Source: Escherichia coli
GTDB lineage: Bacteria > Pseudomonadota > Gammaproteobacteria > Enterobacterales > Enterobacteriaceae
Assembly (NCBI RefSeq): GCF_036507355.1
Contig: NZ_AP027877.1
Strand: one strand, 5' to 3'
Length of the DNA stretch: 64,000 nt
Shown here: positions 1 through 60,515 of the stretch, in pieces
How the letters are laid out: each line of letters opens with the position of its first letter
How positions within the stretch are numbered: the first letter of the stretch is position 1
Position numbers and translations under genes: made by a program
The notes under the pieces: generated by a model
Databases searched by the model: none
The model's input: the letters and a program-made list of their open reading frames with translations, nothing else
What the model was told of the DNA's origin: nothing

Positions 1-2045
1 GCTTCTTCGGTATCCTGCTCGATAAACTCAGTAATGCCTTTGACCAACGAGTATTCCAGACGTTTATTCACTTCCCACGAGCGCCACTCCGCCTGCTGGG
101 CGTTAGCGGTGTCGTCGGTTTTGCTGCCGCGATATTTCTCGGCAAGCTCCAGTAAACGCTCGGTGCCATCATCGCGACGGTTGAGGATCACATCCTCCAC
201 CGCGTCGCGCAGTTCAGCGGGCAGGTCGTCGTAAATCGCCAGTTGCCCGGCGTTGACAATCCCCATATCCATGCCGTTGCGGATGGCGTAGTAGAGGAAC
301 ACCGCGTGAATAGCTTCGCGCACCGGATCGTTGCCACGGAACGAGAACGAGACGTTAGAGACGCCGCCGGAAATTAGCGCGTGCGGCAGTTCGCGTTTGA
401 TGTCTTCACACGCGCCGATAAAGTCCTGCGCGTAGTTATTGTGCTCTTCAATGCCGGTGGCAACCGCGAAGATGTTCGGGTCGAAGATGATATCTTCTGG
501 CGGGAAGCCAACCTCTTCGGTGAGGATGTTGTACGCCCGACGGCAAATCTCGATTTTCCGTGCGCGGGTATCGGCCTGCCCCTGTTCGTCAAAGGCCATT
601 ACCACCACTGCCGCACCGTAACGACGCAACAATTTCGCGTGATGGATAAAAGCGTCGACGCCCTCTTTCATCGAGATAGAGTTAACAATGCCTTTGCCCT
701 GGATACACTTCAGACCTTTTTCAATGACATCCCATTTTGAGGAGTCGATCATAATCGGCACGCGAGCGATATCCGGTTCACCGGCAATCAGATTGAGAAA
801 ACGCACCATCGCCGCTTCGGCATCGAGCATCCCTTCATCCATGTTGATATCGATAATCTGCGCGCCGTTTTCCACCTGCTGACGCGCTACATCCAGCGCC
901 TCGCTGTATTTCTCTTCTTTGATCAGGCGCTTGAACTTAGCGGAACCGGTGACGTTGGTGCGTTCACCCACGTTCACAAACAGGCTATCTTCGCCAATGT
1001 TCAGCGGCTCCAGGCCGGACAAACGGCAGGCTACGGGGATTTCCGGCAGTTTGCGCGGCGCTAATCCTTCTACTGCACGACTCATCGCTGCAATATGTTG
1101 TGGCGTGGTGCCACAGCAGCCGCCGACGATATTGAGAAAACCCGCTTGCGCCCATTCACGTATCTGTTTTGCCATCGTGTCGGCGTCGAGATCGTACTCA
1201 CCAAAGGCGTTGGGTAGCCCGGCGTTCGGGTGCGCGGTGACGTAGCATTCCGCAATCCGTGACAGCTCCTGCACGTACTGGCGCAGTTCATCTGGCCCCA
1301 GCGCACAGTTCAGGCCAAAGGTCAGCGCTTCGGCGTGGCGCAATGAGTTGTAAAATGCTTCGGTGGTCTGCCCGGAGAGCGTGCGCCCGGAGGCGTCGGT
1401 GATGGTGCCGGAGATCATAATCGGCAGCTCAACGCCCAGCGCTTCAAACTCCGTTTTCACCGCAAAAACCGCCGCTTTGGCGTTAAGGGTGTCGAAAACG
1501 GTTTCAATCAGGATCAGATCCGCACCACCTTCCACCAGCGCTTTGGTGGATTCGCGATAGGCCGCCACCAGCTGGTCAAAAGTGATGTTGCGGAATGCCG
1601 GATCGTTGACGTCCGGAGAAATAGACGCCGTGCGGTTGGTCGGGCCGAGAACACCGGCAACGTAGCGCGGTTTCTCTGGCGTGCGCGCGGTCCACTCATC
1701 AGCACAGGCGCGCGCCAGTTTCGCCGCCGCAAAGTTGATTTCCGCCGACAGGGATTCCATCTGGTAATCCGCCATCGCAATGGTCGTGGAGTTGAAGGTG
1801 TTGGTTTCGATGATATCCGCACCCGCTTCAAAGTAGGCGTTGTGGATAGCGGCGATCACTTCCGGTTTACTGAGTACCAGCAGGTCGTTGTTGCCTTTGA
1901 GGTCGCATGGCCAGTCGGCAAAGCGTTCACCACGAAAATCGGCTTCGTTCAGTCGATAGCTCTGGATCATGGTGCCCATACCGCCGTCCAGCACCAGAAT
2001 ACGTTCATTTAACTGCGCACGCAGTTGTTCCACTTTGCTGCTCAC
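1..2045 (-). CDS. metH: Methionine synthase (B12-dependent), N-terminal ~680 codons; 3' part lies beyond window start
   Basis: Reverse-complement of window start translates to [39 protein letters not shown]; reverse-complement near 2045 gives [15 protein letters not shown] with GTG start. Open to window edge so absent from ORF track. Confidence 0.88.
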
Positions 2046-2243
2046 ACTTGCTCCCGACACGCTCAACCCAGATTTAATAAAAATTCAACAAACCATACTG
2101 GCATAAACGCATCAGTGGTAAAAGCGACCACCACGCAATATGAGATTTGTTCAACATTAACTCATCGGATCAGTGTGGCAACTATTGCATTACACCACAA
2201 TAAAAATGAAAATGATTTCCACGATACAGAAAAGGAGACTGTC

Positions 2244-3068
2244 ATGGTCGCACCCATTCCCGCAAAACGCGGCAGAAAACCCGCCGTTGCCACCGCACCA
2301 GCGACTGGACAGGTTCAGTCTTTAACGCGTGGGCTGAAATTACTGGAGTGGATTGCCGAATCCAATGGCAGTGTGGCTCTTACGGAACTGGCACAGCAAG
2401 CCGGATTACCTAATTCCACTACTCACCGCCTGCTAACCACGATGCAACAACAGGGCTTTGTCCGTCAGGTTGGTGAACTGGGTCACTGGGCGATCGGCGC
2501 ACATGCTTTTATGGTCGGCAGTAGCTTTCTCCAGAGCCGTAATTTGTTAGCCATTGTCCATCCTATTCTGCGCAATCTGATGGAAGAGTCTGGCGAAACG
2601 GTAAATATGGCAGTGCTGGATCATAGCGATCACGAAGCGATTATTATCGACCAGGTACAGTGTACGCATCTGATGCGTATGTCAGCCCCTATCGGCGGTA
2701 AGTTACCAATGCATGCCTCTGGTGCCGGTAAAGCTTTTTTAGCCCAACTGAGCGAAGAACAGGTGACGAAACTTCTGCATCGCAAAGGCTTACATGCCTA
2801 TACCCACGCGACGCTGGTGTCTCCTGTGCATTTAAAAGAGGACCTCGCCCAGACGCGTAAACGTGGCTATTCATTTGACGATGAAGAACATGCGCTGGGG
2901 CTTCGTTGCCTCGCGGCGTGTATTTTCGATGAACACCGCGAACCATTTGCCGCAATTTCGATTTCCGGGCCGATTTCACGTATTACCGATGATCGCGTAA
3001 CCGAGTTTGGCGCGATGGTGATTAAAGCGGCGAAGGAAGTAACGCTGGCGTATGGCGGAATGCGGTGA
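2244..3068 (+). CDS. iclR: IclR transcriptional repressor of aceBAK (274 aa)
   Basis: ORF 2025..3068 contains MVAPIPAKRGRKPAVATAPATGQVQSLTRGLKLLEWIAE; ATG at 2244 preceded by aaaggag RBS; divergent from metH. Confidence 0.93.
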   Translation: MVAPIPAKRGRKPAVATAPATGQVQSLTRGLKLLEWIAESNGSVALTELAQQAGLPNSTTHRLLTTMQQQGFVRQVGELGHWAIGAHAFMVGSSFLQSRNLLAIVHPILRNLMEESGETVNMAVLDHSDHEAIIIDQVQCTHLMRMSAPIGGKLPMHASGAGKAFLAQLSEEQVTKLLHRKGLHAYTHATLVSPVHLKEDLAQTRKRGYSFDDEEHALGLRCLAACIFDEHREPFAAISISGPISRITDDRVTEFGAMVIKAAKEVTLAYGGMR

Positions 3069-3084
3069 CATTTTCGCCTCTGAT

Positions 3085-4809
<1,725 letters not shown>

Positions 4810-4837
4810 TTAGCGCCCTCATCAGGAGCAGAGAATT

Positions 4838-4969
4838 GCCGGATGCGGCGTAAACGCCTTATCCAGCCTACGTTCGGCAACGGTTGTAGGCATGATAAGA
4901 CGCGCAAGCGTCGCATCAGGCATCGTGCACCGATTGCCGGATGCGGCGTAAATGCCTTATCCGGCCTAC
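4838..4969. repeat. REP/BIME cluster: three REP units (4838-4871, 4886-4921 inverted, 4936-4969) in aceA-aceK intergenic
   Basis: Two copies of gccggatgcggcgtaaa(c/t)gccttatcc(a/g)gcctac flank an inverted gtaggcatgataagacgcgcaagcgtcgcatcaggc unit; classic REP palindromes. Confidence 0.85.
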
Positions 4970-4992
4970 AGTCAGCAACGTTTGTAGGTTGC

Positions 4993-6297
4993 TTAGAACT
5001 GCGATTCTTCAGTGGAGCCGGTCAGCGCGGTGACTGAAGACGTGCCGCCCTGAATAATGGTCGTCACTTTATCGAAGTAACCTGTACCCACTTCCTGCTG
5101 GTGAGATACGAAGGTGTAGCCATCTTTCGCGGCGGCGAATTCCGGCTGCTGCACTTTCTCAACATAGTGCTTCATACCCTCGCCCTGGGCATAGGCGTTT
5201 GCCAGGTCAAACATGTTGAACCACATGCTGTGGATACCTGCCAGGGTGATGAACTGGAACTTGTAGCCCATATCCGACAGCTGCTGCTGGAAGCTGGCAA
5301 TAGTGTTGTCGTCGAGGTTTTTCTGCCAGTTGAACGACGGCGAGCAGTTATAAGCCAGCAGTTTGCCCGGATATTTCGCGTGGATGGCTTGTGCAAAGCG
5401 ACGCGCCAGTTCCAGATCCGGCGTGGAGGTTTCACACCATACCAGGTCAGCATATGGCGCATACGCCAGGCCACGGCTGATCGCTTGCTCAATGCCCGCA
5501 TGAGTACGGAAGAAGCCTTCACTGGTACGCTCGCCGGTAATAAATTCGCTGTCATACGGGTCGCAATCGGAGGTAATCAGATCCGCCGCATCGGCATCGG
5601 TACGAGCAACCAGTAGGGTTGGAACGCCCGTCACGTCAGCTGCCAGACGCGCCGCGACCAGTTTCTGAATAGCTTCTTGAGTTGGCACCAAAACTTTGCC
5701 GCCCATGTGACCGCATTTCTTCACTGACGCCAGCTGATCTTCGAAGTGAACTGCCGCTGCACCGGCTTCAATCATCGCTTTCATCAGTTCAAAGGCATTC
5801 AGGACACCGCCAAAACCGGCTTCCGCATCGGCAACGATCGGCAGGAAGTAATCGACATAGCGCGGATCGCCCGGCTCAATGCCCGCGGACCATTGGATCT
5901 GATCCGCACGGCGGAAAGTATTGTTGATCCGCTCCACCACCGCTGGCACCGAGTTCGCCGGGTAGAGCGACTGATCCGGATACATGCTGGCCGCCAGGTT
6001 AGCGTCCGCCGCTACCTGCCATCCCGACAGATAGACCGCTTCAATACCCGCTTTCGCCTGTTGCAGCGCCTGACCGCCAGTCAATGCACCGAGGCTGTTG
6101 ATGTAGCCTTTTTTCGACTCGCCATGCAGCAGACGCCACATTTTCGCCGCGCCCAGTTGCGCCAGCGTGCATTCAGGATTGACTGAACCGCGTAATTTCA
6201 CCACATCTTCCGCGCTGTATGGGCGAGTAATGCCTTCCCAACGCGGTTGAGTCCACTCTTTCTGTAATTCTTCAATTTGTTGTGTACGGGTTTTCAT
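4993..6297 (-). CDS. aceA: Isocitrate lyase (434 aa)
   Basis: ORF 4993..6312 contains [39 protein letters not shown]; start taken at MKTRTQQ (ATG 6295-6297 minus). Confidence 0.94.
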
Positions 6298-6326
6298 GTG
6301 CAGATGCTCCATAGTTATGTGGTGGT

Positions 6327-7928
6327 TTACGCTAACAGGCGATAGCCTGGCAGGGTCAGGAAATCAATTAACTCATCGGAAGTGGTGATCTGTTCCATCA
6401 AGCGTGCGGCATCGTCAAAACGCCCCTGGGAGAAACGTTCTGCGCCCAGTTCGCTGGCAATGACTTTCATCTCTTCGCCCAGCATCTGGCGGAACAAGGC
6501 TTTAGTTACCGGTTTGCCATTGCTCAACATTTTTTGATGATGGATCCACTGCCAGATCGAGGTACGGGAAATTTCAGCCGTCGCCGCATCTTCCATCAGG
6601 CCATAAATCGGCACACAGCCGTTGCCAGAGATCCACGCTTCGATGTACTGCACGGCTACGCGAATATTTGCGCGCATACCTTCTTCGGTGCGTTCACCGT
6701 CACAAGGTGCCAGTAGCTGATCGGCAGTAATCGGCGCGTCTTGTTCGCGCATCACTTCAAGCTGATTTTTACGGGAGCCGAGAATGTCGTTGAATACCGC
6801 CATTGCCGTATCCGCAAGGCCTGGGTGAGCGATCCATGTGCCATCGTGACCGTTATTGGCTTCCAGCGATTTATCCGCTTTTACTTTGTTGAGCACCTGG
6901 TTATTGTGCTCTTCATCTTTGCTCGGAATAAACGCCGCCATGCCGCCCATCGCAAAAGCACCGCGTTTATGGCAGGTTTTAATCAACAGGCGTGAGTAAG
7001 CATTCAGGAATGGTTTATCCATCGTTACTGCCTGTCTGTCTGGCAGGACGCGATCGGGATAGTTTTTCAACGTTTTGATATAGCTGAAGATGTAATCCCA
7101 ACGACCGCAGTTCAGACCAACAATATGGTCACGCAGCGCGTGAAGGATTTCATCCATCTGGAACACGGCGGGCAGCGTTTCAATCAGCAACGTCGCCTTG
7201 ATGGTGCCGCGCGGCAGATTAAAGCGATCTTCTGCATAGCTGAAGACTTCGCTCCACCAGGCCGCTTCCTGCCAGGACTGGGTTTTCGGCAGATAGAAAT
7301 AGGGACCACTGCCCTTTGCCAACAGTGCCTGATAGTTGTGGAAGAAATAGAGCGCAAAATCAAACAGGCTGCCGGGGATTGCCTCACCACGCCAGGTGAC
7401 ATGTTTTTCCGGCAAGTGCAGACCGCGTACCCGACAAATCAAAACCGCTGGATTGGGCTTGAGCTGGTAAATTTTGCCTGCTTCATTCGTGTAACTGATG
7501 GTGCCGTTAACCGCATCGCGCAGGTTAATTTGCCCGTCGATCACTTTGTTCCAGTCTGGTGCCAGTGAATCTTCGAAATCGGCCATAAAGACTTTCACAT
7601 TGGCGTTCAGTGCGTTGATCACCATCTTGCGCTCAACCGGGCCAGTTATCTCGACTCGACGATCTTGTAAGTCCGCGGGAATACCACGAATTTTCCAGTC
7701 TGTATCGCGAATGGAAGCTGTTTCCGAAATAAAATCAGGCAACGTTCCGTTATCAATATCTTGCTGCTGCTGAATGCGCGCTGCCAGAAGTTTATTGCGT
7801 TGTGGCGTAAAATGCGTCACCAGCTCAGTCAGAAATTCTACCGCTTCGGCAGTAAGAATTTGCTTCTCCTGCTCGCCATACGGCCTTATGAAAGCCAGTT
7901 CATCGGTTGTTGTTGCCTGTTCAGTCAT
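6327..7928 (-). CDS. aceB: Malate synthase A (533 aa)
   Basis: ORF 6327..7946 contains [25 protein letters not shown]; start taken at MTEQ (reverse-complement ATG at 7926-7928). Confidence 0.94.
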
Positions 7929-8100
7929 CGTGCAGCTCCTCGTCATGGATCCGAAAACTTCCCCACTGTGAACGAAGGATCGTTGTGCGCTTTTCGTTCA
8001 GCACAACTAAGACTACTCATTTAAAATGCAAAATCAAAAACAATTTCCATTTTAATTAAAAATACTTGATAACTTATTGATAACAATATGAATAAAATTT
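7929..8100 (-). promoter_or_regulatory. aceBAK promoter/operator region (AT-rich; expected IclR/IHF sites)
   Basis: AT-rich tract directly upstream of aceB start (caaaaacaatttccattttaattaaaaatacttgataac). Individual boxes not resolved; assignment by position only. Confidence 0.4.
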
Positions 8101-10247: not shown

Positions 10248-10367
10248 ATGCCTGGCAGTTCCCTACTCTCGCATGGGGAGACCCCACACTACCATCGGCG
10301 CTACGGCGTTTCACTTCTGAGTTCGGCATGGGGTCAGGTGGGACCACCGCGCTACGGCCGCCAGGCA
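10248..10367 (-). rRNA. rrfE: 5S ribosomal RNA
   Basis: Reverse-complement is the canonical E. coli 5S sequence (TGCCTGGCGGCCGTAGCGCGGTGGTCCCACCTGACCCCATGCCGAACTCAG...CATGCGAGAGTAGGGAACTGCCAGGCAT), 120 nt. Confidence 0.97.
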
Positions 10368-10460
10368 AATTCTGTTTTATCAGACCGCTTCTGCGTTCTG
10401 ATTTAATCTGTATCAGGCTGAAAATCTTCTCTCAATCCGCCAAAACAGCTTCGGCGTTGT

Positions 10461-13363
<2,903 letters not shown>

Positions 13364-13556
13364 TCACAACCCGAAGATGTTTCTTTCGATTCATCATCGT
13401 GTTGCGAAAATTTGAGAGACTCACGAACAACTCTCGTTGTTCAGTGTTTCAATTTTCAGCTTGATCCAGATTTTTAAAGAGCAAATATCTCAAACATCAC
13501 CCGAAGATGAGTTTTGAGATATTAAGGTCGGCGACTTTCACTCACAAACCAGCAAG

Positions 13557-13632
13557 TGGCGTCCCCTAGGGGATTCGAACCCCTGTTACCGCCGTGAAAG
13601 GGCGGTGTCCTGGGCCTCTAGACGAAGGGGAC
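13557..13632 (-). tRNA. gltV: tRNA-Glu (UUC) in 16S-23S spacer
   Basis: Reverse-complement GTCCCCTTCGTCTAGAGGCCCAGGACACCGCCCTTTCACGGCGGTAACAGGGGTTCGAATCCCCTAGGGGACGCCA, 76 nt. Confidence 0.96.
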
Positions 13633-13717
13633 GTATCAGTCTGCTTCGCAAGACGCCTTGCTTTTCACTTTCTATCAGACAATCTGTGTGAGCACTACAA
13701 AGAACGCTTCTTTAAGG

Positions 13718-15259
<1,542 letters not shown>

Positions 15260-27826: not shown

Positions 27827-27879
27827 GTTCTGCGCTGTTAACGCGTAATTTACATTCAACGCCCCGTTTGTGGGGGCTA

Positions 27880-29954
<2,075 letters not shown>

Positions 29955-29955
<1 letters not shown>

Positions 29956-30590
29956 TGTATCAGCCTGATTTTCCTCCTGTACCTTTTCGTTCAGGACTGT
30001 ACCCGGTGGTGGACAGCGTACAGTGGATCGAACGTCTGTTGGATGCAGGCGTACGTACTCTCCAGCTACGCATCAAAGATCGGCGCGATGAAGAGGTGGA
30101 AGCCGATGTCGTGGCGGCAATTGCGCTGGGCCGCCGCTATAACGCGCGATTGTTTATCAACGATTACTGGCGGCTCGCGATCAAGCATCAGGCGTATGGC
30201 GTCCATTTGGGGCAGGAAGATTTGCAAGCCACCGATCTCAATGCCATCCGCGCGGCAGGCCTGCGGCTGGGCATTTCGACACATGACGATATGGAAATCG
30301 ACGTCGCGCTGGCAGCACGCCCCTCTTATATCGCGCTGGGACATGTGTTCCCGACGCAAACCAAACAGATGCCTTCTGCACCGCAGGGGCTGGAACAGCT
30401 GGCACGGCATGTTGAGCGACTGGCGGATTATCCCACCGTGGCGATTGGCGGTATCAGTCTGGCACGCGCGCCTGCGGTGATAGCAACGGGTGTCGGCAGT
30501 ATCGCCGTCGTCAGCGCCATTACTCAAGCCGCAGACTGGCGTTTGGCAACGGCACAGTTTCTGGAAATTGCAGGAGTTGGCGATGAATGA
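29955..30590 (+). CDS. thiE: Thiamine-phosphate synthase (211 aa)
   Basis: ORF contains [42 protein letters not shown]; ATG overlaps thiC stop (ATGA). Confidence 0.93.
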
Positions 30591-31338
30591 CCGTGATTTT
30601 ATGCGTTATAGCCGCCAAATCCTGCTCGACGATATCGCTCTTGACGGGCAGCAAAAACTGCTCGACAGCCAGGTGCTGATTATCGGTCTTGGCGGGCTGG
30701 GTACACCTGCTGCGCTATACCTGGCGGGCGCTGGCGTCGGGACGCTGGTACTGGCAGATGACGACGATGTGCATTTAAGCAATCTGCAACGACAAATCCT
30801 CTTTACCACTGAAGATATCGATCGCCCGAAATCGCAGGTCAGCCATCAGCGACTGACACAGTTGAATCCCGATATTCAACTGAAAGCATTACAACAACGG
30901 TTAACGGGTGAGGCGTTAAAAGATGCGGTTGCACAAGCCGATGTGGTGCTCGACTGTACCGACAATATGGCGACTCGCCAGGAGATTAATGCCGCCTGCG
31001 TGGCACTCAACACGCCGCTTATCACCGCCAGCGCGGTCGGATTTGGCGGTCAGTTGATGGTACTGACGCCGCCCTGGGAGCAGGGGTGTTACCGCTGCCT
31101 GTGGCCAGATAACCAGGAGCCAGAACGCAACTGCCGCACGGCGGGCGTGGTTGGCCCGGTGGTCGGGGTTATGGGCACTTTGCAGGCACTGGAAGCCATT
31201 AAGTTATTAAGCGGTATAGAGACGCCTGCGGGAGAACTCCGACTGTTCGACGGTAAGTCGAGCCAGTGGCGCAGCCTGGCGTTGCGCCGCGCCAGTGGTT
31301 GCCCGGTATGCGGAGGAAGCAATGCAGATCCTGTTTAA
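30583..31338 (+). CDS. thiF: ThiS adenylyltransferase (251 aa)
   Basis: ORF 30490..31338 contains [53 protein letters not shown]; start taken at MNDRD, overlapping thiE end by 8 bp. Confidence 0.93.
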
Positions 31339-31522
31339 CGATCAACCGATGCAGTGCGCCGCCGGGCAAACTGTTCACGAACTACTGGAGCAACTCGACC
31401 AACGACAAGCGGGCGCGGCTCTGGCGATTAATCATCAAATCGTCCCGCGTGAGCAGTGGACGCAACATATCGTGCAGGATGGCGACCAGATCCTGCTTTT
31501 TCAGGTTATTGCAGGGGGTTGA
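31322..31522 (+). CDS. thiS: Sulfur-carrier protein ThiS (66 aa, C-terminal GG)
   Basis: [66 protein letters not shown]; start inside thiF 3' end. Confidence 0.92.
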
Positions 31523-31523
31523 G

Positions 31524-32294
31524 ATGTTACGTATTGCGGACAAAACGTTTGATTCACATCTGTTTACCGGCACAGGGAAATTCGCTTCTTCACAACTGAT
31601 GGTGGAGGCGATCCGCGCTTCCGGCAGCCAGCTGGTGACACTGGCGATGAAACGTGTCGACTTGCGCCAGCACAACGACGCTATCCTCGAACCGCTTATC
31701 GCGGCGGGTGTGACCCTGCTGCCGAATACTTCCGGGGCGAAAACAGCGGAAGAAGCCATTTTCGCCGCCCATCTGGCACGTGAAGCGTTAGGCACAAACT
31801 GGCTAAAATTGGAGATTCACCCTGACGCCCGCTGGCTGTTGCCCGATCCCATCGAAACCCTGAAAGCCGCCGAAACGCTGGTACAACAGGGATTTGTCGT
31901 GCTGCCTTACTGCGGGGCCGATCCGGTATTGTGTAAACGTCTGGAAGAAGTCGGCTGTGCAGCGGTGATGCCGCTCGGCGCGCCGATTGGCTCGAATCAG
32001 GGACTGGAAACCCGTGCCATGCTGGAGATTATTATCCAGCAGGCCACAGTTCCGGTGGTTGTCGATGCTGGCATCGGCGTTCCCAGCCATGCCGCGCAGG
32101 CGCTGGAAATGGGGGCCGACGCGGTGTTAGTGAATACGGCGATTGCCGTCGCGGACGATCCCGTCAACATGGCGAAGGCATTTCGTCTGGCAGTAGAAGC
32201 AGGCCTGCTGGCACGTCAGTCCGGACCGGGCAGCCGCAGTTATTTTGCTCATGCCACCAGCCCGCTGACCGGATTTCTGGAGGCATCGGTATGA
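31524..32294 (+). CDS. thiG: Thiazole synthase (256 aa)
   Basis: ORF 31266..32294 contains [49 protein letters not shown]; start taken at MLRIAD, 1 bp after thiS stop. Confidence 0.93.
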
Positions 32295-33424
32295 AAACCT
32301 TCAGCGATCGCTGGCGACAACTGGACTGGGACGACATCCGCCTGCGTATCAACGGCAAAACGGCTGCTGACGTAGAGCGGGCGCTAAATGCCTCGCAACT
32401 CACCCGCGACGACATGATGGCGCTGTTATCGCCTGCCGCCAGTGGCTATCTGGAACAACTGGCCCAACGGGCGCAGCGTCTGACCCGTCAGCGATTTGGC
32501 AACACAGTTAGTTTCTACGTCCCGCTTTATCTTTCCAATCTTTGCGCTAACGACTGCACGTACTGCGGATTTTCCATGAGTAATCGCATCAAGCGCAAAA
32601 CGCTGGACGAAGCGGATATTGCCAGGGAAAGCGCCGCTATACGGGAGATGGGCTTTGAACATCTGCTTTTAGTCACTGGTGAACATCAGGCGAAAGTGGG
32701 GATGGATTACTTTCGTCGTCATCTCCCTGCCCTGCGTGAACAGTTCTCTTCACTACAGATGGAAGTGCAACCGCTGGCGGAGACGGAATACACCGAGTTA
32801 AAGCAACTTGGTCTGGATGGGGTGATGGTTTATCAGGAGACATATCACGAGGCGACTTATGCCCGCCATCATCTGAAAGGCAAAAAACAGGACTTCTTCT
32901 GGCGGCTGGAAACGCCGGATCGGCTGGGGCGTGCGGGGATTGATAAGATTGGCCTCGGCGCACTAATTGGCCTTTCCGACAACTGGCGAGTTGACTGTTA
33001 TATGGTTGCCGAACATTTGCTATGGCTGCAACAGCATTACTGGCAAAGCCGCTACTCTATCTCCTTCCCGCGCCTGCGCCCATGTACTGGCGGCATTGAG
33101 CCTGCGTCGATTATGGATGAACGCCAGTTAGTGCAAGCCATCTGCGCCTTCCGGCTGCTTGCACCGGAGATTGAACTGTCACTCTCCACGCGGGAATCAC
33201 CGTGGTTTCGCGATCGCGTTATTCCGCTGGCGATCAATAACGTCAGCGCCTTCTCGAAAACGCAGCCAGGTGGCTATGCCGATAATCACCCCGAGTTGGA
33301 ACAGTTCTCACCGCACGACGATCGCAGACCGGAAGCGGTTGCTGCCGCGTTAACCGCTCAGGGTTTGCAGCCGGTATGGAAAGACTGGGACAGCTATCTG
33401 GGACGCGCCTCGCAAAGACTATGA
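32291..33424 (+). CDS. thiH: 2-iminoacetate synthase, radical SAM (377 aa)
   Basis: ORF translation [33 protein letters not shown]... with radical-SAM motif CANDCTYC. Confidence 0.94.
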
Positions 33425-33790
33425 GACGGAATGTAAGGACGTAAATTTATTCCGAGCCGCTACGGAAGATGAAAAACGCAAGGTTGTTGAAAGCGTTGTG
33501 TTTTTTTATGGTAGTGCCGTCAGCAGGAATGTTGTCCAGGGCGAAAAGCTTCTTCCTCGTTTCGCCCTGCCTTTCTTAAAAATTCCGTAATGCAAAGTCT
33601 GAAGCCATCGCCTGTTGAGCAATGAAAGAGATCTGATTGTAAGAGAGTAAATACTCAACTATGATAGAGACGAAAATAAGAACACATGTTCTCATCTTCC
33701 AGGATGCAGCAGACTGAAGAAATTCAGACATCCCGCAACCTGCGATTATCGCAAGGTCAAGGCAAAGTCCGGTAATGGCGTTCTGAATAC

Positions 33791-33840
33791 CAGAGATAAT
33801 TCTCTGGCGAAACCCACCTTAAGGTGGGTTTTGTTATTTT
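33791..33840 (+). terminator. Tandem hairpins with plus-strand intrinsic-terminator signature at 3' end of thiH-htrC intergenic
   Basis: ccagagataattctctgg hairpin followed by aaacccaccttaaggtgggttttgttatttt (stem plus T-run on plus strand); overlaps htrC stop on the opposite strand. Confidence 0.5.
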
Positions 33841-52115: not shown

Positions 52116-52235
52116 ATGCCTGGCAGTTCCCTACTCTCGCATGGGGAGACCCCACACTACCATCGGCGCTACGGCGTTTCACTTCTGAGTTCGGCATGGG
52201 ATCAGGTGGGACCACCGCGCTACGGCCGCCAGGCA
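52116..52235 (-). rRNA. rrfB: 5S ribosomal RNA
   Basis: Canonical 5S sequence on minus strand; differs from the rrfE copy at one position (gggatcagg here, ggggtcagg in rrfE). Confidence 0.97.
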
Positions 52236-52328
52236 AATTCTGTTTTATCAGACCGCTTCTGCGTTCTGATTTAATCTGTATCAGGCTGAAAATCTTCTCT
52301 CAATCCGCCAAAACAGCTTCGGCGTTGT

Positions 52329-55231
<2,903 letters not shown>

Positions 55232-55424
55232 TCACAACCCGAAGATGTTTCTTTCGATTCATCATCGTGTTGCGAAAATTTGAGAGACTCACGAACAACT
55301 CTCGTTGTTCAGTGTTTCAATTTTCAGCTTGATCCAGATTTTTAAAGAGCAAATATCTCAAACATCACCCGAAGATGAGTTTTGAGATATTAAGGTCGGC
55401 GACTTTCACTCACAAACCAGCAAG

Positions 55425-55500
55425 TGGCGTCCCCTAGGGGATTCGAACCCCTGTTACCGCCGTGAAAGGGCGGTGTCCTGGGCCTCTAGACGAAGGGGAC
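55425..55500 (-). tRNA. gltT: tRNA-Glu (UUC) in 16S-23S spacer
   Basis: Same 76-nt tRNA-Glu sequence as in rrnE. Confidence 0.96.
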
Positions 55501-55585
55501 GTATCAGTCTGCTTCGCAAGACGCCTTGCTTTTCACTTTCTATCAGACAATCTGTGTGAGCACTACAAAGAACGCTTCTTTAAGG

Positions 55586-57127
<1,542 letters not shown>

Positions 57128-60149: not shown

Positions 60150-60390
60150 TAAAGCATCCACAATAGAAGAAGGATGCCGCAGGTTTCATCAATATTACGC
60201 GATGATGAGAACCAGATGCGACGTTGGCCGGCAGGTCTTCGGGCTTGGAGGGGTATCTAAGATACTAAGAGATGATGACTTCCCACCGAATGGCAGTGTC
60301 CGCATAACGCAATCATCGCACCTTTCCTTACCGCTGCGCGTCAGCTCCAGATTCGCACTGGATTCCCTATTAACTCACAGGACCGGCAAG
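60150..60390 (-). promoter_or_regulatory. Cobalamin (AdoCbl) riboswitch in btuB leader
   Basis: Minus-strand leader contains the B12-box AAGCCCGAAGACCTGCCGGCC and upstream GGTGCGATGATTGCGTTATGCGGACACTGCCATTCGGTGGGAAGTCATCATC elements ahead of the btuB start. Confidence 0.85.
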
Positions 60391-60515
60391 TGGATGCTAC
60401 AGGTTGTAACAAGTTACTGTCCAGACGTAGCTCACAAATAGGAATTCATCAAGATCTGGACATCTGATGAGCAATCCCTACAATCGCCGCGTACTTTAAT
60501 TTTTCAGGATACATC

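What the first reader, a model, noticed from the sequence alone, without database searches (positions are those of the whole stretch)
4810..4992. BIME-type REP cluster between aceK and aceA
Three REP units in alternating orientation occupy the aceA-aceK intergenic region. REP clusters inside operons are known to modulate mRNA stability and relative expression of upstream versus downstream genes, which is relevant for the low aceK output of the aceBAK operon. Expected rather than novel.
Basis: partly seen in the sequence, partly recalled or inferred. Interest (0 to 1): 0.1.

Follow-up and report, generated by a model that had tools for sequence, protein, structure and literature searches.

The report
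REP hairpin cluster between aceA and aceK
The 183 bases between the glyoxylate-shunt genes aceA and aceK hold three copies of E. coli's common REP palindrome, as in strain K-12; this is a long-known, ordinary feature that probably helps only modestly to keep aceK output low.

Summary
Window 4810-4992 is exactly the aceA-aceK spacer, with the genes on the minus strand. It holds three REP units in alternating orientation: Y 4936-4969, Z2 4886-4921 and Y 4838-4871, separated by 14-nt linkers. This is a BIME-2 array with a 98-nt period. Shuffles of the window give no such matches.

K-12 also has three REPs, and the two spacers are 177/183 identical. Copy number at this locus is polymorphic. A systematic sample of 59 E. 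coli chromosomes gave 0 to 6 REPs, with five the commonest (28/59). E. albertii has 11.

The functional reading is only partly supported.
- K-12 Term-seq data (Adams 2021) show an RNA 3' end 4 nt past the aceK-proximal REP.
- That end has about 50-fold fewer reads than the intrinsic-terminator end 367 nt inside aceK (AceK-int). That hairpin is present in the window.
- Published work attributes low AceK mainly to poor translation and premature termination within aceK.

One new observation came out. In 78 of 79 other Enterobacteriaceae species, this spacer always carries a stable GC-rich hairpin, drawn from at least two unrelated repeat families. This hints at selection for a structural barrier.

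Verdict: already known, low interest.

The parts
4993..6297 (-). aceA (isocitrate lyase), the upstream gene; stop codon at 4993-4995
   Evidence: NCBIfam NF011645, E 9e-242. RefSeq annotates homologues at 1305 bp.
4970..4988 (-). CCTAC tail remnant of a Z2-type REP (4984-4988) plus a 14-nt tail-to-tail linker. This is the left end of the array, 4 nt after the aceA stop codon.
   Evidence: It lies inside the 56-nt direct repeat 4835-4890 / 4933-4988, 89% identical. It matches the internal Z2-Y junction.
4936..4969 (-). REP 1, Y type, aceA-proximal. On the mRNA it reads GTAGGCCGGATAAGGCATTTACGCCGCATCCGGC.
   Evidence: 1 mismatch to the Y consensus. Hairpin energy -17.7 kcal/mol. It differs at 2 loop bases from the K-12 unit.
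4922..4935 (-). 14-nt head-to-head linker, AATCGGTGCACGAT
   Evidence: Read directly from the sequence. No IHF consensus is present.
4886..4921 (-). REP 2, Z2 type, in the opposite orientation. On the mRNA it reads GCCTGATGCGACGCTTGCGCGTCTTATCATGCCTAC.
   Evidence: 1 mismatch to the Z2 consensus. It forms the 3' half of the Rfam naRNA4 match.
4872..4885 (-). 14-nt tail-to-tail linker, AACCGTTGCCGAAC
   Evidence: Read directly from the sequence.
4838..4871 (-). REP 3, Y type, aceK-proximal. On the mRNA it reads GTAGGCTGGATAAGGCGTTTACGCCGCATCCGGC.
   Evidence: 1 mismatch to the Y consensus. Hairpin energy -17.3 kcal/mol. Identical to the K-12 unit.
4834..4834 (-). Position equivalent to the K-12 Term-seq RNA 3' end at 4218571, 4 nt past the REP 3 stem
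   Evidence: PMC7815308 supplementary file 1, sheet LB 2.0, read count 1,115. The coordinate transfer to the window is my inference from identical sequence.
4810..4837 (-). Right flank of the array, carrying the aceK ribosome-binding site: AATTCTCTGCTCCTGATGAGGGCGCTAA. The CCTGATG looks like the first bases of a truncated Z2 unit.
   Evidence: Constant in all REP-bearing E. coli alleles and absent from the 0-REP allele.
3085..4809 (-). aceK (isocitrate dehydrogenase kinase/phosphatase, 574 aa), the downstream gene
   Evidence: NCBIfam NF002804, E 8e-285.
4442..4471 (-). Intrinsic-terminator-like hairpin plus U tract inside aceK, ending about 367 nt after the start codon. It corresponds to the 3' end of the AceK-int sRNA and is the main RNA 3' end downstream of aceA in K-12.
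   Evidence: Terminator scan. Hairpin energy -12.3 kcal/mol. The sequence is identical to the K-12 3'-end region at 4218963.

Best explanation
The spacer is a BIME-2 array, that is, tandem REP (palindromic unit) repeats of types Y, Z2 and Y in alternating orientation. It is the same element found at this locus in E. coli K-12.

The array is transcribed as part of the aceBAK mRNA, and each unit can fold into a stable GC-rich stem-loop.

The most likely role is as a structural barrier. After termination or cleavage downstream, mainly at the intrinsic terminator 367 nt into aceK, 3'-to-5' exonucleases chew back and stall at the REP hairpins. The aceB-aceA part of the message then outlives the aceK part.

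This contribution is probably modest. The large aceA-to-aceK drop is mainly due to weak aceK translation and premature termination inside aceK.

Any stable hairpin seems to do the job. The number of REPs is not critical and drifts through unequal recombination of the 98-nt unit.

What is shown: the identity, the anatomy, the polymorphism and the K-12 3' end next to the REP. What is inferred: the exonuclease-barrier role at this locus and its size.
For: Identity:
- REP consensus matches with 1 mismatch each, none expected by chance.
- Rfam naRNA4 match at 81.8 bits.
- 177/183 identity to the K-12 spacer.
- The definitions of y/z2 units, the GTAG tetranucleotide and BIME-2 in PMC3333891 are met.

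Structure:
- Hairpins of -12 to -18 kcal/mol each; the array folds at -66 kcal/mol, z = -6.

RNA end:
- K-12 Term-seq shows a 3' end 4 nt after the aceK-proximal REP in LB at OD 2.0. This is the signature of an exonuclease stalled at a hairpin.

Main downshift elsewhere:
- The 3' end at aceK +367 has 56,453 reads and an intrinsic terminator score of 5.9. The same hairpin is in the window.
- PMC5435950 observed premature termination within aceK and cites earlier work for the 0.3:1:0.003 product ratio.

Comparative evidence:
- 78 of 79 other Enterobacteriaceae species have a GC-rich hairpin in this spacer. The weakest MFE is -19.8 kcal/mol and the median shuffle z is -4.5.
- These divide into 36 REP-like, 36 of the CCCTCTCCC/GGGAGAGGG type (2 spacers match both motifs) and 8 other.
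- As a control, the aceB-aceA spacer is short and unstructured in most species: median 31.5 nt, MFE -1.9 kcal/mol.
- Even the REP-less E. coli allele keeps its own hairpin.

General mechanism:
- The malE-malF precedent is described in PMC5927463.
Against: - No experiment on this locus was available to me that removes the REPs and measures aceA or aceK.
- My recollection of Chung et al. 1993 (J Bacteriol 175:4572) is that the downshift was assigned to translation and to termination within aceK, not to the spacer. I could not retrieve the paper.
- The REP-adjacent 3' end is about 50-fold weaker than the AceK-int end and was listed in only one of three conditions. AceK-int is Hfq-stabilised, so read counts do not measure flux.
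- Copy number varies from 0 to 6 within E. coli. In IAI39 an IS1397 sits inside the array. The exact array is therefore not constrained.
- Near-universal hairpin occupancy could reflect targeting of repeats to existing hairpins rather than selection.
- The species are not phylogenetically independent.
Confidence: 0.6

Rival explanations
1. The array is a neutral passenger. It is selfish or hitch-hiking repeated DNA, spread and resized by the REP-associated transposase or by recombination. It is tolerated in a spacer where it does no harm and has no operon-specific function.
For: - Copy number ranges from 0 to 6 in E. coli and reaches 11 in E. albertii.
- Alleles relate to one another by gain or loss of whole 98-nt units.
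- An IS1397 insertion in the array is tolerated in IAI39.
- Variable tandem BIME number between strains is a known general property (PMC3333891).
- Other repeats colonise the aceB-aceA spacer sporadically.
Against: - 78 of 79 species keep some stable hairpin here, drawn from unrelated families.
- The E. coli allele without REPs has its own hairpin.
- The neighbouring aceB-aceA spacer is usually empty.
- An RNA 3' end maps next to the REP.
Confidence: 0.3
2. The array is a translational throttle. The aceK-proximal Y REP base-pairs with the aceK Shine-Dalgarno sequence and start codon (GGCGUUUACGCCGCA with UGAGGGCGCUAAAUGCC). This hides the ribosome-binding site and causes the poor aceK translation.
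For: - The RNAfold ensemble pairs positions -12 to +4 of aceK with the REP at P about 0.83 in the window, K-12, 1-REP and 5-REP alleles.
- That ensemble is 9 kcal/mol more stable than one with three local REP hairpins.
- The duplex energy is -25.5 kcal/mol.
- Across 77 species the aceK initiation region is predicted to be less accessible than that of aceA: 0.40 against 0.54, Wilcoxon p = 2e-8.
Against: - The complementarity is only mildly unusual: 2% of 30-nt windows and 4.8% of shuffles do as well.
- It is absent from the 2-, 4- and 6-REP alleles and from E. albertii.
- Local REP hairpins should form first during transcription.
- The evidence is purely a thermodynamic prediction.
Confidence: 0.12
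3. The array acts on DNA or on transcription rather than on mRNA decay. It could be a BIME-2 gyrase/HU/Pol I binding site acting as a topological insulator, or a BIME-associated (Rho-dependent) attenuator that stops some polymerases before aceK.
For: - BIME-2 arrays are reported gyrase targets, and REPs are reported terminators and insulators (introduction and references 2-9 of PMC3333891).
- The array matches the naRNA4 model.
- The 3' end after REP 3 could in principle be a termination point.
Against: - No Rho-termination region is listed for aceA or aceK in the Adams 2021 BCM data set (supplementary file 2 has no hit). The operon is poorly expressed in that condition, so power is low.
- No U tract follows the REPs, so they are not intrinsic terminators (one search finds none in the spacer).
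- Hairpins of unrelated sequence occupy the same site in other genera. This argues for an RNA-structure role rather than a sequence-specific protein site.
Confidence: 0.1

Closest known systems
The aceA-aceK REP cluster of E. coli K-12 (BIME-2 array; REP units catalogued at this locus)
   Same: Same locus, same three units in the same order and orientation (Y-Z2-Y), the same linkers and the same right flank with the aceK ribosome-binding site. Identity is 177/183.
   Different: There are five substitutions and one indel. The aceA-proximal Y unit has the loop variant GGCATTTACGCC instead of GGCGTTCACGCC. The window also keeps a CCTAC remnant after the aceA stop codon that K-12 lacks. The window allele is the one found in O157:H7, SMS-3-5 and IAI39.
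malE-malF intercistronic REPs (classical REP mRNA stabiliser)
   Same: REP hairpins lie between a highly expressed upstream cistron and a weakly expressed downstream one. An RNA 3' end maps just past the hairpin (mechanism described in PMC5927463).
   Different: For mal the protective effect was shown by deletion experiments. Here it is inferred. The main 3' end lies at a separate intrinsic terminator inside aceK.
naRNA4 / REP325 (Rfam RF02564)
   Same: The sequence and structure match above the gathering score, at 81.8 against 59.5 bits. Both are Y-Z2 BIME-2 pairs.
   Different: naRNA4 is defined by HU binding and nucleoid condensation for RNA from another locus. Nothing here tests that. The Rfam model in practice recognises the generic BIME-2 pair.
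CCCTCTCCC/GGGAGAGGG-type hairpin repeats (box C-like, from my memory of the E. coli repeat literature) in other Enterobacteriaceae
   Same: They occupy the same aceA-aceK spacer in 36 of 79 species and form a comparably stable hairpin.
   Different: The sequence family is unrelated. These are usually one or two units, and the spacer can be as short as 48 nt.

Membership tests
REP / palindromic unit (E. coli y, z1, z2 types) | 30-40 nt imperfect palindrome matching the y or z2 consensus | tested here: met
   Two Y matches and one Z2 match, 1 mismatch each, with 0 expected in shuffles. The consensus strings are from my memory of Bachellier et al. and are consistent with the description in PMC3333891.
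REP / palindromic unit (E. coli y, z1, z2 types) | Conserved GTAG tetranucleotide 5' of the palindrome foot, and a mismatch (internal loop) in the stem | tested here: met
   All three units carry GTAG/CTAC at the foot. The folds of both Y units show a 2x2 internal loop, (((((((..((((....))))..))))))), and the Z2 unit shows a 1x1 mismatch.
REP / palindromic unit (E. coli y, z1, z2 types) | Extragenic location and high copy number in the genome | tested here: met
   The array lies wholly between the aceA stop and the aceK start. The 501-nt query hits a median of 27 places per E. coli genome because of its REPs.
BIME-2 | Made of y and z2 units in alternating (inverse) orientation | tested here: met
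   On the mRNA the order is Y(-), Z2(+), Y(-).
BIME-2 | Short linkers, tandem multi-copy arrangement, and copy number variable between strains | tested here: met
   Both linkers are 14 nt and the period is 98 nt. E. coli genomes carry 0-6 units.
BIME-2 | DNA gyrase binding or cleavage | not testable with these tools
   Known only from the literature cited in PMC3333891 (reference 9).
BIME-1 | z1 unit plus y unit separated by the long L linker carrying an IHF site; single copy | tested here: not met
   No z1 consensus match at up to 6 edits. No WATCAANNNNTTR motif on either strand of the spacer. The linkers are 14 nt.
naRNA4 (Rfam RF02564) | Covariance-model score above the gathering threshold | tested here: met
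   81.8 bits against 59.5, E = 1e-14.
naRNA4 (Rfam RF02564) | HU-bound RNA that condenses the nucleoid | not testable with these tools
   No binding or expression data are available for this locus.
REP mRNA stabiliser (malE-malF type) | An RNA 3' end immediately downstream of the hairpin in vivo | tested here: met
   K-12 Term-seq gives a 3' end at 4218571, 4 nt after the REP 3 stem. These are published K-12 data, transferred to the window by sequence identity.
REP mRNA stabiliser (malE-malF type) | Removing the hairpin shortens the upstream mRNA half-life or lowers upstream gene expression | not testable with these tools
   This needs an experiment. No such data were found in the library.
REP translation regulator (Liang, Rudd & Deutscher 2015; recalled from memory) | REP stem begins within about 15 nt of the upstream stop codon | tested here: not met
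   The GTAG of the first full REP starts 23 nt after the stop codon, and its stem starts 27 nt after.
Intrinsic terminator | GC-rich hairpin directly followed by a U tract | tested here: not met
   The terminator scan finds none in 4810-4992. The two hits lie inside aceK.

The most novel reading that the evidence does not exclude
The aceA|aceK junction may be under selection to carry a stable RNA hairpin. On this reading, different Enterobacteriaceae lineages have filled the need convergently with unrelated palindromic repeats. Escherichia, Citrobacter, Salmonella and Klebsiella pneumoniae use REP/BIME elements. Enterobacter, Kosakonia and others use CCCTCTCCC-type hairpins. Some E. coli use a private hairpin. 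In the E. coli alleles that end in a Y REP, the repeat may additionally pair with the aceK ribosome-binding site. Mobile repeats would then be recruited as interchangeable parts of a conserved device that sets the roughly 300:1 AceA:AceK ratio.
Probability: 0.3. Interest if true: 0.35.

Novelty: already known. Interest (0 to 1): 0.12.

Why it matters
AceK sets the branch point between the TCA cycle and the glyoxylate shunt and must be made in tiny amounts relative to AceA. Knowing which RNA features enforce that ratio matters for acetate physiology and for metabolic engineering.

The REP cluster itself is a textbook feature and adds nothing new. The comparative pattern is a small, testable lead: a hairpin is always present, its family is interchangeable, and its copy number is free to vary. 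The lead concerns how mobile repeats get co-opted as operon punctuation. The natural 0-6 REP allelic series in E. coli is a ready-made experimental panel.

Tried and rejected
1. An RNase III site 'near aceK' (PMC5371410) looked as if it might be cleavage of the long Y/Z2 duplex. The supplement places it at 4219637, about 1 kb inside aceK, so it is unrelated to the BIME.

2. BIME-1/IHF reading: no z1 unit and no IHF motif.

3. REP as an intrinsic terminator: no U tract.

4. REP-induced ribosome stalling at the aceA stop codon: the REP is too far away, 23-27 nt.

5. Retrieving Chung et al. 1993 by PubMed or PMC id failed. Full-text searches found no paper that tests the aceA-aceK REPs directly. 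What I say about that paper beyond the citation in PMC5435950 is from memory.

6. REP-to-ribosome-binding-site pairing was examined and kept only as a weak rival, because its significance is marginal and it is not conserved.

7. The array ends fall at CC|TACA and CC|TGAT. These resemble the TnpA(REP) iREP cleavage motifs of PMC3333891. I noted this but did not pursue it, because it cannot be distinguished from simple truncation of Z2 units.

8. The search for the Liang 2015 REP/trans-translation paper found nothing in the library.

Full report
**What is there**

The window's first 10 kb carries, on the minus strand, metA, aceB (7946-6327), aceA (to 4993) and aceK (4809-3085). All are identified by NCBIfam equivalog models at E-values of 1e-166 or better. 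The finding's coordinates, 4810-4992, are therefore exactly the 183-nt aceA-aceK spacer.

Read in the sense of the mRNA, the spacer is:
- 4 nt;
- a CCTAC remnant plus a 14-nt linker;
- a Y-type REP (window 4969-4936);
- a 14-nt linker, AATCGGTGCACGAT;
- a Z2-type REP in the opposite orientation (4921-4886);
- a 14-nt linker, AACCGTTGCCGAAC;
- a second Y-type REP (4871-4838);
- a 28-nt right flank, AATTCTCTGCTCCTGATGAGGGCGCTAA, which carries the aceK Shine-Dalgarno sequence.

Each unit matches its consensus with one mismatch. No further match exists in the 64-kb window, and none appears in 100 dinucleotide-preserving shuffles. The direct repeat has a 98-nt period, which is 34 + 14 + 36 + 14. 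Rfam's naRNA4 model is in practice a Y-Z2 pair model, and it scores 81.8 bits against a gathering score of 59.5. As RNA, single units fold at -12 to -18 kcal/mol and the 132-nt array at -66.4 kcal/mol, z = -6.1.

**Classification**

The definitions restated by Ton-Hoang et al. (PMC3333891) describe a REP as follows: y/z1/z2 units of 30-40 nt, a GTAG at the foot and a mismatch in the stem. BIME-2 is y plus z2 in inverse orientation with short linkers, in tandem copies whose number varies between strains. BIME-1 is z1 plus y with a long IHF-binding linker, in single copy.

By these definitions the array is a BIME-2. No z1 unit and no IHF consensus is present.

K-12 has a 182-nt spacer with the same three units. 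The two spacers are 177/183 identical. The differences are one indel and two substitutions just after the aceA stop codon, two substitutions in the loop of the aceA-proximal Y unit, and one substitution in a linker.

**Population picture**

All but one of 5,426 complete E. coli genomes match the flanks. A systematic sample of 59 chromosomes gave these spacer types:

| Spacer | REP units | Chromosomes |
|---|---|---|
| 280 nt | 5 | 28 |
| 183 nt (window type; also O157:H7, and SMS-3-5) | 3 | 6 |
| 182 nt (K-12 type) | 3 | 6 |
| 213-215 nt | 4 | 4 |
| 124 nt | 2 | 6 |
| 85 nt | 1 | 1 |
| 313 nt | 6 | 1 |
| 48 nt | 0 | 7 |

Representative sequences were read and annotated.

The alleles relate by whole 98-nt units. 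The five-unit allele is Ya-Z2-Yb-Z2-Yc, K-12 is Ya-Z2-Yc, the window is Yb-Z2-Yc and the one-unit allele is Yb alone. E. albertii carries 11 units in 542 nt. In strain IAI39, an IS1397 sits in the loop of the aceA-proximal Y unit of the window-type allele. IS1397 is an insertion sequence known to target these units. Variable BIME number between strains is a known property.

**What it probably does**

The general idea is that REP hairpins between cistrons block 3'-to-5' exonucleases and so stabilise the upstream segment. This is established for malE-malF (summarised in PMC5927463).

For aceBAK I found no direct test in the library and could not retrieve Chung et al. 1993. PMC5435950 cites that work for the 0.3:1:0.003 product ratio and itself observed premature termination within aceK.

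The published K-12 Term-seq tables of Adams et al. (PMC7815308) are informative.
- In LB at OD 2.0, a 3' end maps at 4218571, which is 4 nt past the stem of the aceK-proximal REP. It has 1,115 reads.
- The end at 4218963 lies 367 nt into aceK. It has an intrinsic terminator score of 5.9 and is the 3' end of the Hfq-dependent AceK-int sRNA. It has 56,453 reads in that condition and 4,963 in LB at OD 0.4.
- That terminator hairpin, CCGCTCGCTTACTCCCGAGCGG followed by CTTTTTAT, is intact in the window at 4471-4442 on the minus strand.

So a REP-protected end exists, but the main boundary downstream of aceA lies inside aceK. I conclude that the array is at most a secondary contributor to low aceK output.

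**A comparative observation that goes beyond the finding**

I fetched the aceK locus from 80 other species, all Enterobacteriaceae, and extracted the aceA-aceK spacer from 79 of them.
- In 78 of 79 species the spacer is 48-542 nt long and always folds stably. The weakest MFE is -19.8 kcal/mol and the median shuffle z is -4.5; 52 of 78 are below -3.
- The element differs between species. There are 36 REP-like units of species-specific sequence, 36 hairpins of the CCCTCTCCC...GGGAGAGGG type (2 spacers match both motifs) and 8 other hairpins.
- The E. coli allele without REPs has its own hairpin, CGCCCCUUUCCGUAAGGCGAGGGGCG, and a different Shine-Dalgarno sequence, AAGGAG. In layout it resembles spacers of other genera such as L051.
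- The single exception, L029, has lost the spacer and the aceA stop codon. There aceA reads into a TGA that overlaps the aceK ATG.
- As a control, the aceB-aceA spacer in the same loci has a median of 31.5 nt with an MFE of -1.9 kcal/mol. It carries an inserted repeat in only about 22 of 78 species.

This pattern fits selection for some hairpin at this junction. The species are not independent, however, and repeats may simply home to existing hairpins. I give this reading about 0.3.

**A weaker idea**

In the thermodynamic ensemble, the aceK Shine-Dalgarno sequence and AUG pair with the aceK-proximal Y REP. This pairing has P about 0.83 in the window, K-12, one-unit and five-unit alleles. That ensemble is 9 kcal/mol more stable than one with three local hairpins.

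Against this, the duplex of -25.5 kcal/mol is matched by 2% of random 30-nt windows and 4.8% of shuffles. The pairing is absent from the two-, four- and six-unit alleles and from E. albertii. Local hairpins should also form first during transcription. Across 77 species the aceK initiation region is predicted to be less accessible than that of aceA, 0.40 against 0.54, but GC-rich context alone could cause that. I keep this as a minor rival.

**Rejected leads**

- The RNase III site reported for aceK lies about 1 kb inside the gene, not in the BIME.
- The REPs are not intrinsic terminators, because no U tract follows them.
- They begin 23-27 nt after the aceA stop codon. That is too far for the stop-codon-proximal REP stalling mechanism, which I recall from Liang et al. 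2015 and could not find in the library.
- No Rho-termination region is listed for aceA or aceK in the Adams data, though power is low because expression was low.

**Verdict**

This is a real, correctly described and already known feature. It is a BIME-2 array of three REPs between aceA and aceK, with the same copy number as K-12, at a locus where E. coli strains carry from none to six. Its operon-specific function remains inferred and is probably modest. Interest is low (0.12). The only mildly new point is the near-universal but family-interchangeable hairpin at this junction across Enterobacteriaceae.

Noticed in passing
window 4442-4471 (minus strand), inside aceK: An intrinsic-terminator-like hairpin, CCGCTCGCTTACTCCCGAGCGG followed by CTTTTTAT. 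It is identical to the K-12 site that ends the AceK-int sRNA, 367 nt into aceK. It is likely the main cause of low full-length aceK mRNA.
   Followed up: partly
window 2118-3095: iclR lies directly next to aceK. The 2.2-kb arpA/espL4 gene found there in K-12 and TUM13936 is absent. aceK is 574 aa and ends ...SVRFV, instead of 578 aa ending ...SVRYGEMLF. The layout is the same in IAI39 and CE10.
   Followed up: partly
L091 (E. coli IAI39) 3312-4930: An IS1397 is inserted in the loop of the aceA-proximal Y REP of the same allele as the window. This splits the aceA-aceK spacer with about 1.4 kb of IS.
   Followed up: partly
window 1500-8000 versus window 28000-33000: The ace-iclR region is at best about 96.5% identical to any of 5,426 complete E. 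coli genomes, and the iclR part is 91% identical to TUM13936. The thi region reaches 99.3%, and the 501 nt around the BIME are 100% identical to TUM13936. The locus looks mosaic, or the lineage is poorly represented.
   Followed up: no
L014, L023, L043, L045, L052, L058, L062, L080 and others, aceB-aceA spacer: About 22 of 78 species carry a 79-215 nt insert between aceB and aceA. In most of them this is a 95-215 nt ERIC/IRU-like element (...GGCTATTTTGTTCGCCATTTT...AACGCCTGGGAAGCCAGG...). The spacer is about 30 nt elsewhere, including in the window.
   Followed up: no
L029 2470-2505: A record labelled Edwardsiella ictaluri has an AceK 90% identical to that of E. coli. It has lost both the spacer hairpins and the aceA stop codon, so aceA reads on to a TGA overlapping the aceK ATG. 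The label may reflect contamination or mislabelling.
   Followed up: no
L003, L005, L007 (E. coli 4-, 2- and 6-REP alleles), last unit before aceK: These alleles end in a chimeric Z2/Y unit (GCCTGATGCGACG...GCGTCTTATCCGGC). The 4- and 6-REP alleles also have a different aceK leader, GAGGGCAACAA instead of GAGGGCGCTAA. The first Y unit of L007 shows a compensatory pair change (GGTCGG...CCGACA) that keeps the stem.
   Followed up: no
window 4810-4837 and 4984-4992 (the two ends of the array): Both array boundaries fall at CC|TACA and CC|TGAT. These are the same sequences as the iREP type II and type I cleavage sites reported for the REP-associated transposase in PMC3333891. This could be a footprint of transposase-mediated insertion or simply truncated Z2 units.
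   Followed up: no
window 10250-15259 and 52118-57127; 27879-27979; 60213-60402; 33672-33832: The window contains two complete rRNA operons, a TPP riboswitch (thiC), a cobalamin riboswitch (btuB), sroH and a cluster of four tRNAs at 48.2-48.65 kb. This is consistent with the K-12 region at roughly 4.16-4.22 Mb (my recollection of the K-12 map) in reverse orientation.
   Followed up: no
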